From assembly GCA_951406725.2 (NCBI GenBank), contig OX597815.1:117676001-117740000 (forward strand): a DNA stretch of 64,000 bases, in the 5' to 3' direction. The position numbers were made by a program, and so were the translations under genes. Position 1 is the stretch's first letter, and every line of letters starts with the position of its first letter. The notes under the pieces were generated by a model that worked only from the letters and a program-made list of their open reading frames with translations, had not been told where the DNA came from and ran no database searches. Source of the DNA: Octopus vulgaris. Its lineage: Eukaryota. Positions 14,670 to 53,380 of this stretch are shown in pieces.

Positions 14670-15250
14670 CCTTTCTACTATAGGAACAGGGCTTGAAATT
14701 TTGAGGGAGGAAGCCAGTCAATTAGATCGACCACAGTACGCAACTTTTACTTAATTTATCGACCCCGAAAAGATGAAAGGCAAAGTCGACCTCGGTGGAG
14801 TTTGAACTCAGAGCGTAGCGACGGGCGAAATACCTATTTCTTTACTATCCACAAGGGGCTAAATACAAACAAGGACAAACAAGGACAGAAAAACGGATTA
14901 AGTCGATTATATCGACCCCAGTGCGTAACTGGTACTTATCTAATCGATCCCGAAAGGATGAAAGGCAAAGTCGACCTCGGCGGAATTTGAACTCAGAACG
15001 TAACGGCAGATGAAATACCTATTTCTTTACTGCCCACAAGGGGCTAAACATAGAGGGGACAAACAAGGACAGACAAACGGATTAAGTCGATTACATCGAC
15101 CCCAGTGCGTCACTGGTACTTAATTTATCGACCCCGAAAGGATGAAAGGCAAAGTCGACCTCAGCGGAATTTGAACTCAGAACGTAACGGCAGATGAAAT
15201 ACGGCTACGCATTTCGGCCGGCGTGCTAACGTTTCTGCCAGCTCACCGCT
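14669..15250 (-). mobile_element. S2 SINE with three tandem internal ~180-bp units
   Basis: atcgaccccgaaaggatgaaaggcaaagtcgacctc...tttgaactcaga recurs at about 14757, 14943 and 15126. Confidence 0.9.
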
Positions 15251-29545: not shown

Positions 29546-29952
29546 CTCTTTACTCTTTCTCTTTTACTCTTTTACTTGTTTCAGTCATTTTGACTGCGGC
29601 CATGCTGGAGCACCGCCTTTAGTCGAGCAAATCGACCCCGGGACTTATTCTTTGTAAGCCCAGTACTTATTCTATCAGTCTCTTTGCCGAACCGCTAAGT
29701 GACGGGGACGTAAACTCACCAGCATCGGTTGTCAAGCAATGCTAGGGGGACAAACACACACAGACACACATATATACATACATATACACGACAGGCTTCT
29801 TTCAGTTTCCGTCTACCAAATCCACTCACAAGGCATTGGTCGGCCCGGGGCTATAGCAGAAGACACTTGCTCAAGATGCCACGCAGTGGGACTGAACCCG
29901 GAACCATGTGGTTGGTTAGCAAGCTACTTACCACACAGCCACTCCTGCGCCT
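29546..29952 (-). mobile_element. S1 SINE, full length
   Basis: Complete reverse-complement copy including head ggcgcaggagtggctgtgtgg. Confidence 0.9.
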
Positions 29953-29990
29953 ATGTATATATATATATATATATATAAGGAAAGTAGCTA

Positions 29991-30354
29991 GTAGCTAGTT
30001 GTAAACTCTCAAGAAGATATGAGAATAGAAACTGTACTAACTAGTAAAATTAATCGCCACATCAAAGTGGCTGTGCCATGTTACTACTAGTTTAACCCTA
30101 GGCAGTTATTGTTGCGGCCCTGCATCCTGTACATGTATATTGCTAGCAGGGGTGTAAACCTCTACCATCTTCCGGCAGACCATAGGATTGCGAGGCTGAC
30201 CTCAGTTTCGAGCTAGTTTGCTCGTCTTCAGACGCGAACACCTGGTCGCCAGAAAGATGGTCAGAGTCCGCTCCCGCCAGCAATATATTGTAAACAAAGC
30301 GACCATCGGTCACCGATTTGCAACAAGCAATGTAGCTAGTCCTAAAATCTCAAG
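29991..30354 (-). mobile_element. HHR-bearing 341-bp structured monomer with 23-bp terminal direct repeat
   Basis: gtagctagttgtaaactctcaag (29991) vs gtagctagtcctaaaatctcaag (30332); long imperfect stem 30130-30292; (TA)n on both sides. Confidence 0.75.
30188..30238 (-). ncRNA. Type I hammerhead ribozyme motif
   Basis: Minus: CTGAAGA C GAGC aaacta GCTC GAAAC tgag GTC; intact core, bulged stem I extended by a long rod. Confidence 0.8.
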
Positions 30355-30383
30355 TGTACATATATATATATATATATATATAT

Positions 30384-30616
30384 TTTAATGTAGGATAAAA
30401 TTTTTTCGAAAAAAAAAATTTTATCAATGGCCAGCATATTAAAAATACCTTTAGCGGTTAAATTTATAAGCAACTTATAAATAAGGGCAAACAAAAAAAT
30501 TTCTAATACCAAATATGCCGAAATAAGACACATTGTCCATATGGTTATGGACAATGTGTCTTATTTCGGCATTTTTGGCATTAGAAATTTTTTCGTTTGC
30601 CCTTATTTATAAGTTG
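30384..30616. repeat. (TA)n-flanked island ending in a 71-bp fold-back
   Basis: Arms 30471-30541 and 30546-30616 (3 mismatches), 4-nt loop; shares atcaa.tggccagcat, aaataaggg and atgccgaaata with 22229-22917. Confidence 0.9.
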
Positions 30617-38954: not shown

Positions 38955-38957
<3 letters not shown>

Positions 38958-39515
38958 GCGGACACCAGAACAATATGCGGGCAAGACAGATGAAAATTAT
39001 ATAAAAAACAAGAATTAATCGCAGACCGCGGTTTCGCCTATTAACTAATGAATCACTTACGTAATCCTTCGTCCGTAGGACTCGTCAGTGCGATCGTTCC
39101 ACAGGCAATATAATTTGTAAAACTAACCACCAATTTTCCGTATAAAAACAGACACGTGCTTAGTTTCACCGATTACATTGGGGTTAATTTCAAATGTATG
39201 CGCTAAAATTCCGGAAACAAAATCTGCAGTAAATAATTTACTGCAGTTAATACTGCCTATTAAAGAACATATTTATTTTAACATTTAAATAATGAGGGAG
39301 ATGTGTTGAATATTAATTTAATTAATATCAATTTAAAACAAGTAGCCTAGCATACAAAAATCTGAAAAATCAGAGAAAATTCATAGTGGTTCTTTAGCCC
39401 TTTACATATACACATGTATTAGAATTTTCTCTGATTTTTCAAATTTTTGTATGCTAGGCTACTAGTTTTAAATTGATATTAATTAAATTAATATTCAATT
39501 TATCTCCCTCATTAT
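38955..39515 (-). mobile_element. HHR-bearing element with 94-bp 5' fold-back
   Basis: (TA)n-flanked; arms 39289-39382 and 39422-39515; HHR at 39018-39094. Confidence 0.85.
39018..39094 (-). ncRNA. Type I hammerhead ribozyme, canonical core
   Basis: Minus: atcgca CTGACGA GTCCTA...TAGGC GAAA CCGCG GTC tgcgat; 6-bp stem I, GUC triplet, palindromic ACCGCGGT. Confidence 0.88.
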
Positions 39516-52765: not shown

Positions 52766-53380
52766 GCGAGCTGGTAGAATCGTTAGCACGCCGGGCGAAA
52801 TGCTTAGCGGTATTTCGTTTGCCGTTACGTTCTGAGTTCAAATTCCGCCGAGGTCGACTTTGCTTTTCATCCTTTCGGGGTCGATAAATTAAGTACCAGT
52901 TACGCACTGGCATCGATATAATCGACTTAATCCGTCTGTCTGTCCTTGTTTGTTTCCTCTGTATTTAGCCTCTTGTGGATAATAAAGAAATAGGTAATTC
53001 GTTTACCGCTACGTTCTGAGTTCAAATTCCGCTGAGGTCGACTTTACCTTTCATCCTTTCGGGGTCGATAAATTAAGTGCCAGTTACGTACTTGGGTCGA
53101 TATAATCGACTTAATCCCTTTGTATGTCCTTGTTTGTCTTCTCTGTGTTTAGCCCCTTGTGGGCAGTAAAGAAATAAGAATCGTTAGCACGCCACGCAAA
53201 TGCTTAGCGGCCGGCATTTCTTCCGTCTTTACGTCCTGAGTTCAAATGCTGCCGGAGTCAACTTTGCCTTTTATCCTTTTGGGGCCTATAAAAGAAGTAC
53301 CAATTGAGCAATGGCGGGTCGATGTAATCGGTTTACCTCCTCCCCCGAAATTTCTGGTCCTGTGCCAAAATTTGAAATCA
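52766..53380 (+). mobile_element. S2 SINE oligomer (three units)
   Basis: Same internal tandem structure as 14669-15250, opposite strand. Confidence 0.85.

What the first reader, a model, noticed from the sequence alone, without database searches (positions are those of the whole stretch)
29991..30354. 341-nt retrozyme-like monomer: intact HHR on top of a long rod
Seen: the minus-strand HHR has a complete core and GUC site. Its flanks pair over ~60 nt per side (ctctgaccatctttctggcgacca with tggtctgccggaagatggtagag; tatattgctggc with gctagcaatata). The rest also forms hairpins (aactagta/tactagtt, gccac/gtggc), and a 23-bp imperfect direct repeat marks slightly more than one unit. Inference: cDNA of a highly paired circular RNA copied just over one round, in the size range of metazoan retrozymes.
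Basis: partly seen in the sequence, partly recalled or inferred. Interest (0 to 1): 0.8.

Follow-up and report, generated by a model that had tools for sequence, protein, structure and literature searches.

The report
Decayed hammerhead-bearing Penelope-type mini-retroelement
This is one old copy of a dispersed 356-base non-coding repeat family built around a hammerhead ribozyme motif; this copy's ribozyme is mutated at the cut site and likely dead, and the family's insertion ends pile up at two fixed sites, which suggests it was likely spread by a Penelope-type retrotransposon enzyme, possibly from circular RNA.

Summary
The unit, the 23-nt direct repeat and the paired rod are real (circular fold z -6.0). 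The 'intact HHR' is not. Alignment to other genomic copies puts the family's cleavage triplet at 30196-30194; this copy reads GCC there (U in 75 of 79 aligned hammerheads). The element (29977-30354, minus strand, between TA runs) is a 1.1-unit copy of an old family: about 1,000 candidate places, about 80% pairwise identity. Copies are not freely permuted. 71 of 96 segments end in two windows covering 11% of the unit (peaks 58 nt apart), 5' ends are scattered, and 22 of 63 loci carry inverted 5' pieces. That is the published Penelope-like element (PLE) 'tail' footprint. No array of two intact units was found (longest uninterrupted copy 1.78 units), yet copies run through the ribozyme cut site, so the template was a circle or an uncleaved multimer. 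A sister family keeps both end sites. A (TA)n-targeting Neptune-type PLE is present but shows no DNA similarity to the unit. Verdict: a retrozyme-like non-autonomous PLE, a new member of a known kind. The two-site footprint adds modest mechanistic value.

The parts
29977..30354 (-). Whole insertion: 23-nt remnant of an upstream unit, one full unit, and a 3' extension to end site B with a 7-nt duplication (about 1.1 units)
   Evidence: Boundaries from alignment to family copies; the 3' end read from the sequence as TTTCCTT then ATAT, matching the family end TTTGCTT then A
30332..30354 (-).
   Evidence: D3; L001 starts at unit position m334
29991..30331 (-). One full period (341 nt here, 356 nt in the family)
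30188..30237 (-). Type I hammerhead, decayed: stem I 30237-30232 with 30193-30188; CUGAAGA 30231-30225; extra nucleotide 30224 between A9 and G10.1; stem II 30223-30210; GAAA 30209-30206; stem III 30206-30195; family cut site 30194/30193, where the triplet reads GCC instead of GUC
30125..30300 (-). Long base-paired rod that carries the hammerhead at its tip
   Evidence: z -5.9
30056..30071 (-). GCCAC/GUGGC hairpin just 5' of end site A; its stem is kept in the sister family with a different loop
   Evidence: seen in the sequences
30036..30054 (-). End site A (family 3' ends peak at 30043-30042, m304-305), at the 3' edge of the 7-nt loop of a predicted hairpin; inferred first reverse-transcription start
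   Evidence: 34 of 96 segment ends in m299-312; pair probability about 0.8 in the family majority fold
29977..30001 (-). End site B region (family ends at m344-m13, peak m7, 58 nt after A); this copy ends here; inferred second reverse-transcription start. The stretch from A to B is the optional 'tail'
   Evidence: 37 of 96 segment ends; peaks of 10 ends each at m305 and m7
29954..29976 (.). (TA)n target run on the 3' side
30360..30383 (.). (TA)n target run on the 5' side

Best explanation
This is an old copy, with a mutated and likely inactive ribozyme, of a dispersed ORF-less 356-nt hammerhead repeat whose copies end at two fixed sites, often beside TA runs, and which was likely mobilised in trans by the reverse transcriptase and GIY-YIG endonuclease of a Penelope-like element. 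SHOWN in the sequences: type I hammerhead on a rod in the family; 3' ends at sites A and B; scattered 5' ends; partial tandems; inverted 5' pieces, often with A on one side and B on the other; TA-rich targets; cDNAs that run through the ribozyme cut site. INFERRED: a PLE protein, probably Neptune-type, nicked (TA)n DNA and primed reverse transcription internally at A or B, which share AC-UUURCUU before GUU. It then copied back through the unit for 0.1-1.8 rounds. The template was either a monomer circle, made by cleavage at two successive hammerheads of a source longer than one unit followed by ligation (I put this at about 45-50%), or an uncleaved multimeric transcript (about 40%). The window copy started at B, ran 1.07 rounds and has since decayed.
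For: 71 of 96 segments from 63 distinct loci end in windows covering 11% of the period, against 13 of 96 5' starts. Among loci picked only by a 28-nt hammerhead pattern, 14 of 22 segments end there; among 9 further loci mapped after the windows were fixed, 7 of 10. Site A lies inside every DNA query, so it is not a query-end artefact. 23 head-to-head pairs occur in 22 of 63 loci, 8 of them A with B. TATA/ATAT lies within 10 nt downstream of 36 of 71 A/B ends, against 13% in distal flanks. These match the PLE features in PMC8557442 (passages: partial tandems, inverted 5' copy, 30-40 bp tail at one end, microsatellite bias) and PMC11167929 (parts 1-2: tail = distance between two internal RT starts). 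The extra base between A9 and G10.1 and the palindromic 15.2-16.2 region are listed PLE-hammerhead traits in PMC4209133 (parts 1-2). A sister family (16 of 20 loci hit by the family profile, best E 1.7e-10) ends at homologous sites: 4 of its 7 secondary pieces at the A equivalent. An autonomous RT + GIY-YIG element with a CX4CxxC linker and (TA)n ends is abundant in the genome. Only 3 of 96 5' starts lie within 5 nt of the cut site (3.0 expected) and 4 segments hold two cut sites.
Against: No autonomous partner with similar DNA was found: the family profile hit none of the PLE ends in 40 GIY-YIG loci, the one significant hit being a separate sister-family insertion. The tail (58 nt) is longer than the 30-40 bp reported. 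25 of 96 ends lie outside A and B (some at later insertions or the internal TA run; not all were traced), and 14 of 23 inverted pairs have at least one such end. The A and B windows were drawn after seeing the first 44 loci, so the p-values are inflated. Most loci were chosen by similarity across the hammerhead, which under-samples short copies starting at the cut; only 7 loci were picked without it (0 of 7 pattern-bearing segments start there). Hairpin A has only one-sided G-U-type changes and no double compensations. A matching hairpin at B is not predicted.
Confidence: 0.8

Rival explanations
1. One reading: cDNA of a circular RNA primed at arbitrary points, with a working ribozyme in this copy.
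For: Strong circular fold; segments cross the cut site and reach 1.78 units; size within the 150-450 bp quoted for metazoan retrozymes (PMC7229834, passages).
Against: 3' ends are fixed at two sites. This copy has C at U16.1 and U at 2.1, and the alternative GUC has almost no stem I.
Confidence: 0.05
2. Same PLE mobilisation, but from linear uncleaved transcripts of a tandem master locus (lost, unassembled or not among the scored hits); the hammerhead played no part in making the template and no circle existed.
For: In vitro, the Anolis PLE uses unprocessed RNA, and hammerhead mutants insert normally (PMC11167929, part 2). Only 40 of about 1,000 candidates were scored per search, so an array could be missed. 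The unit holds an internal TA run that could seed self-insertion and tandems.
Against: Queries of 1.75 and 1.78 units returned no array. The 15 exact hammerhead-pattern hits are all isolated. No unique 5' flank is shared among 42 loci, so no 5' transduction was seen. The hammerhead architecture and rod are kept in a distant sister family.
Confidence: 0.4
3. The units are only 5'-truncated pseudo-LTR ends of an extinct autonomous PLE, not a separately propagating element.
For: Truncated PLE copies show the same ends; the 2026 preprint (10.64898/2026.07.22.740005, parts 1-3) finds retrozymes related to pLTRs.
Against: Past site B the sequence continues into the start of the same unit, not into an ORF. 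No PLE ORF was found as part of an element in 104 loci searched by tblastn; the hits in L049, L131, L011/L061 lie apart from the units.
Confidence: 0.1
4. A SINE-like element moved by a LINE (RTE, CR1 or similar) with a simple-repeat tail.
For: Copies often end beside TA or CA repeats.
Against: Partial tandems, two alternative 3' ends and inverted pieces with complementary A/B ends are the PLE pattern (PMC8557442 passages).
Confidence: 0.05

Closest known systems
Metazoan non-LTR retrozymes (Cervera and de la Pena 2020, PMC7229834; mussel 350-390 bp and axolotl 330/350 bp units)
   Same: ORF-less unit of about 350 nt, canonical-size type I hammerhead (6-bp stem I, 4-bp stem II), highly paired predicted circle, PLEs in the same genome.
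   Different: No dimers or multimers of intact units found; stem III is 4 bp rather than 1-2 bp; copies carry fixed PLE-type ends; the family is old and this copy is mutated; circular RNA not shown.
Non-autonomous Penelope-like elements (non-autonomous Chlamys such as MRC1, PMC8557442; retrozymes as PLE derivatives, 10.64898/2026.07.22.740005)
   Same: Partial tandems, inverted 5'-truncated copies, optional tail, microsatellite targets, hammerhead in the repeat.
   Different: No sequence link to an autonomous pLTR was found; the tail is 58 nt; the hammerhead is full-size, whereas the young autonomous family here has a minimal UUGAUAA-core motif.
Poseidon PAc of Anolis (PMC11167929)
   Same: Two internal start sites that define a tail; AT-rich targets; hammerhead upstream of the start sites.
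   Different: PAc is autonomous and starts in an AC-rich stem-loop within its ORF; here the sites are U-rich, non-coding and share a 12-nt motif.

Membership tests
Non-LTR retrozyme | Type I hammerhead in the unit | tested here: met
   Family: 40 of 75 hammerhead instances keep all core residues, 29 of 62 when pattern-picked ones are left out; 7 of 62 also keep the stems
Non-LTR retrozyme | Intact, cleavable hammerhead in this copy | tested here: not met
   GCC at the cut triplet with an A15.1/C16.1 mismatch; U/U at the first stem I pair. Activity not assayed
Non-LTR retrozyme | Short unit of 150-450 bp without ORF, LTR, PBS or PPT | tested here: met
   Period 356; only short chance ORFs overlap it. 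PBS and PPT were not searched for
Non-LTR retrozyme | Tandem arrays, dimers to multimers | tested here: not met
   Longest uninterrupted copy 1.78 units in 72 mapped loci; L062 makes 2.35 passes but with internal deletions. 4 segments hold two cut sites. Only 40 candidates were scored per search
Non-LTR retrozyme | Expressed as circular RNA | not testable with these tools
   Only contigs were available and no run is on record as RNA
Non-autonomous Penelope-like element | 5' truncation with partial tandem (pseudo-LTR) | tested here: met
Non-autonomous Penelope-like element | Inverted 5'-truncated copy next to the insertion | tested here: met
   22 of 63 loci
Non-autonomous Penelope-like element | Optional tail: two alternative 3' ends, often one on each side | tested here: met
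   71 of 96 ends; 8 of 23 inverted pairs are A with B; 58 nt rather than 30-40
Non-autonomous Penelope-like element | Microsatellite (TA)n insertion bias | tested here: met
   36 of 71 against 13% background
Non-autonomous Penelope-like element | Sequence shared with the pLTR or 3' end of an autonomous PLE | tested here: inconclusive
   None in 40 loci drawn from the top 148 of 6,136 GIY-YIG candidates, which one young family dominates; older PLE families were barely sampled
Non-autonomous Penelope-like element | Mobilised by PLE RT-EN | not testable with these tools
   Needs biochemistry

The most novel reading that the evidence does not exclude
An array-less retrozyme lineage whose unit-length circles are copied directly by a Neptune-type PLE enzyme from two fixed, motif-marked start sites 58 nt apart, one per nicked strand, each cDNA running round the circle through the ligated hammerhead junction; insertions longer than about 1.2 units with two hammerheads reseed the circle. 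The genomic ends would then be a direct footprint of PLE priming on retrozyme circles, kept between two distant sister families.
Probability: 0.4. Interest if true: 0.62.

Novelty: new member of a known kind. Interest (0 to 1): 0.4.

Why it matters
The single copy is a fossil. The family is more useful. That PLEs move animal retrozymes has been argued from co-occurrence and shared hammerheads (PMC7229834, discussion) and from pLTR phylogeny in Xenopus (10.64898/2026.07.22.740005). Here a retrozyme-like unit shows the PLE two-start tail signature at base resolution, with the start sites kept in a sister family and a candidate intact (TA)n-targeting PLE protein in the same genome. That names the RNA positions and the enzyme class for a direct priming test on linear against circular templates. 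I found no paper mapping such ends for a retrozyme, but subscription papers, Repbase/Dfam entries and the supplements of these papers were not seen, and the family may already be catalogued as an unknown or Penelope repeat.

Tried and rejected
Free circular permutation: rejected. Tandem arrays: three DNA searches and two exact patterns found none; each DNA search scored only 40 candidates. Expression: no RNA holder listed. Four runs were laid as contigs at 80% likeness: X1, only guessed to be RNA, has one 109-nt contig matching 30038-30146 with 1 difference, and no listed joint lies at the hammerhead cut. This is no evidence either way. Autonomous partner: the family profile was run on 40 GIY-YIG loci and the end motif was sought in 3' regions of 15 of them, with no link. 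A 10-nt word shared with the L121 3' region is within chance (my estimate). Concordance of the two passes inside one insertion at diagnostic sites is 201 of 250 (tandem) and 196 of 243 (inverted), against 61% between loci; it shows both passes came from one source but does not separate a circle from a uniform multimer. 5' transduction: none; five loci share a high-copy repeat at their 5' side but at different junctions, read as shared TA targeting. Twin hairpins at A and B: only A is predicted. One segment below the score cut-off (L037, score 49) ends at m135, near the cut; it is not in the 96. The pairwise alignment of the family with its sister was only just above the best of 200 shuffles (156 against 153), so the profile result carries that claim. 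Earlier scan notes: none for this genome.

Full report
Setting. The window lies at C2:117676001-117740000 of a 2.8-Gb assembly and is dense in microsatellites. From recall this looks like an octopus-type genome; I did not test that. The element lies on the minus strand between two TA runs.

Observation. The 23-nt repeat (87%, spacing 341) and the rod arms are there. The unit folds far better than shuffles as a line (z -5.6) and as a circle (z -6.0, 67% paired). The rod supplies the signal (z -5.9); the remaining 134 nt give z -1.9. Rfam finds no hammerhead here at gathering score but finds another at 39018-39094.

The hammerhead. A search of the genome gave 941 candidates, 40 scored. The 30 best copies are 80% identical pairwise and 84-91% to the column majority, so the family is old. 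Their alignment shows a type I hammerhead: stem I UCGCGA/UCGCGA, CUGA(A/G)GA, one extra base, stem II GAGC/GCUC, GAAA, stem III ACUG/CAGU and cleavage after the second GUC, at 30194/30193. The window copy has C at U16.1 (75 U, 2 C, 2 gaps in 79), U at 2.1 (66 A in 76) and an extra G in loop 3. With it as cut site, stem I reads U-A, G/G, C/C, and the constrained fold is -18.6 against -31.8 kcal/mol free; in 7 better copies the gap is 3.6-10.0. PMC3884650 (passages) gives the NUH rule and notes its extension to NHH, so a C at this position is not excluded by name. That the extension needed a changed partner at 15.1 is my recall. With A15.1/C16.1 and U/U mismatches on both sides of the core, I judge this copy likely inactive; this was not assayed. 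Across the family, 40 of 75 hammerhead instances keep every core residue; among those not picked by pattern, 29 of 62 do and 7 of 62 also keep the stems. The extra base before G10.1 and the palindromic stem III region are traits listed for PLE hammerheads (PMC4209133, parts 1-2 of 4 read).

Insertion anatomy. I mapped 63 distinct loci on the 356-nt period (repeats of the same place dropped). Of 96 segments scoring 60 or more, 34 end at m299-312 (site A, window about 30043) and 37 at m344-m13 (site B); these windows cover 11% of the period. Only 13 of 96 5' starts fall in them. The sharpest peaks are m305 and m7, 10 ends each, 58 nt apart. The windows were set after the first 44 loci. Loci picked by a 28-nt hammerhead pattern give 14 of 22, and 9 later loci give 7 of 10. 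25 of 96 ends lie elsewhere. Head-to-head inverted pieces occur in 22 of 63 loci; of 23 pairs, 8 are A with B, 1 is B with B, and 14 have another end. TATA or ATAT follows within 10 nt in 36 of 71 A/B ends, against 13% in distal flanks. PMC8557442 (passages) describes just this for PLEs: partial tandems, an inverted 5'-truncated copy, a 30-40 bp tail at one end and microsatellite bias. PMC11167929 (parts 1-2 of 4) shows that the tail is the stretch between two internal RT start sites. The window copy starts at m334, so its 23-nt repeat is the stub of an upstream unit. It ends at site B, at 29977, with a 7-nt duplication. Both sites share AC-UUURCUU before GUU. Site A is predicted at the edge of a hairpin loop (pair probability about 0.8), and variants there are one-sided only. 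No like hairpin is predicted at B.

Circle or line. No segment scoring 60 or more ends at the hammerhead cut. 74 of 96 run through it, 4 hold two cut sites, and 3 of 96 start within 5 nt of it, with 3.0 expected. Selection favours copies that span the hammerhead, but in 7 loci picked on the site A region alone none of the pattern-bearing segments starts at the cut. A cleaved linear monomer was therefore not the usual template. The longest uninterrupted copy is 1.78 units (L049); L062 makes 2.35 passes with deletions. Queries of 1.75 and 1.78 units found no array among 40 scored of 1,238 and 1,158 candidates. No unique 5' flank is shared among 42 loci. This fits monomer circles reseeded by insertions with two hammerheads. 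It does not exclude a lost or unassembled tandem master, and PAc prefers unprocessed RNA in vitro. The laid runs do not bear on expression.

Relatives and partner. A GIY-YIG search gave 6,136 candidates and 148 matches, many in 781-aa frames. [quoted passage not shown] It is a fitting class of helper, but the family profile finds no similarity to PLE ends in 40 loci. That search did reveal a sister family (2,644 candidates, about 90% identity). It has a unit of 346-353 nt with a hammerhead motif and is hit by the profile in 16 of 20 loci. 21 of its 27 segment ends lie at the B equivalent (biased, since the query ended there) and 4 of its 7 secondary pieces end at the A equivalent.

Comparison. 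It works like a metazoan non-LTR retrozyme (PMC7229834, passages and sections 14 and 17) but fails the tandem-array criterion as tested, so I do not file it strictly there. It meets the structural tests of a non-autonomous PLE, with the link to an autonomous element open. The 2026 preprint (parts 1-3 of 5) already proposes retrozymes as non-autonomous PLE derivatives; its invertebrates are three insects and one anthozoan. Hammerheads are already counted in a squid genome (PMC6962438, passage), and Penelope expansions in cephalopods (PMC8967140, passages). I also saw passages of PMC6155905 and PMC1636495 (an extra base before G10.1 in a working viroid hammerhead). No supplements were read, and they may list this or related families.

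Verdict. Observation partly confirmed, interpretation partly supported. A decayed member of a known kind; the base-resolved two-site footprint, kept in a sister family, is the part worth following. Interest 0.4.

Noticed in passing
window 38955-39390 (minus); Rfam hit 39018-39094: A second, younger hammerhead family (RF00163, 34.9 bits): 6,006 candidates, 84-94% identity among scored hits, a fixed 3' end at a TA run and inverted 5' pieces. The family profile did not hit it. It also looks PLE-type.
   Followed up: partly
L125:5078-5320; L131-L150: Sister family of the finding's unit, about 90% identity among copies, 2,644 candidates, same hammerhead layout and homologous end sites; a better target for RNA and cleavage tests.
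   Followed up: partly
L077:1017-1345: A further related unit (profile score 75 bits, E 1e-22) lying next to a copy of the 39-kb hammerhead family and ending near site B.
   Followed up: no
L121-L124 (for example G000:C16:20835000-20841000): Young autonomous Neptune-type PLE with an open 781-aa frame in many copies, (TA)n targeting, a minimal hammerhead-like motif with a UUGAUAA core about 100 nt from the 3' end, and an optional tail in L095 and L122.
   Followed up: partly
L062:1496-2187: Insertion making 2.35 passes with two internal deletions, whose later passes share private variants; repeated template jumps or a later local duplication.
   Followed up: partly
window 29560-29953; also beside L006, L025, L029, L045, L060: A high-copy repeat ends at the TA run next to the element and sits directly beside five other copies at different junctions, suggesting shared TA hotspots.
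   Followed up: partly
window 14716-15202 and 52809-53176: Partial tandem arrays of a 184-nt repeat, 2.6 and 2.0 copies; similar sequence interrupts family copies L004 and L020.
   Followed up: no
window 30394-30612: An imperfect palindromic AT-rich stretch next to the element, resembling sequence seen beside L122; possibly a MITE-like element.
   Followed up: no
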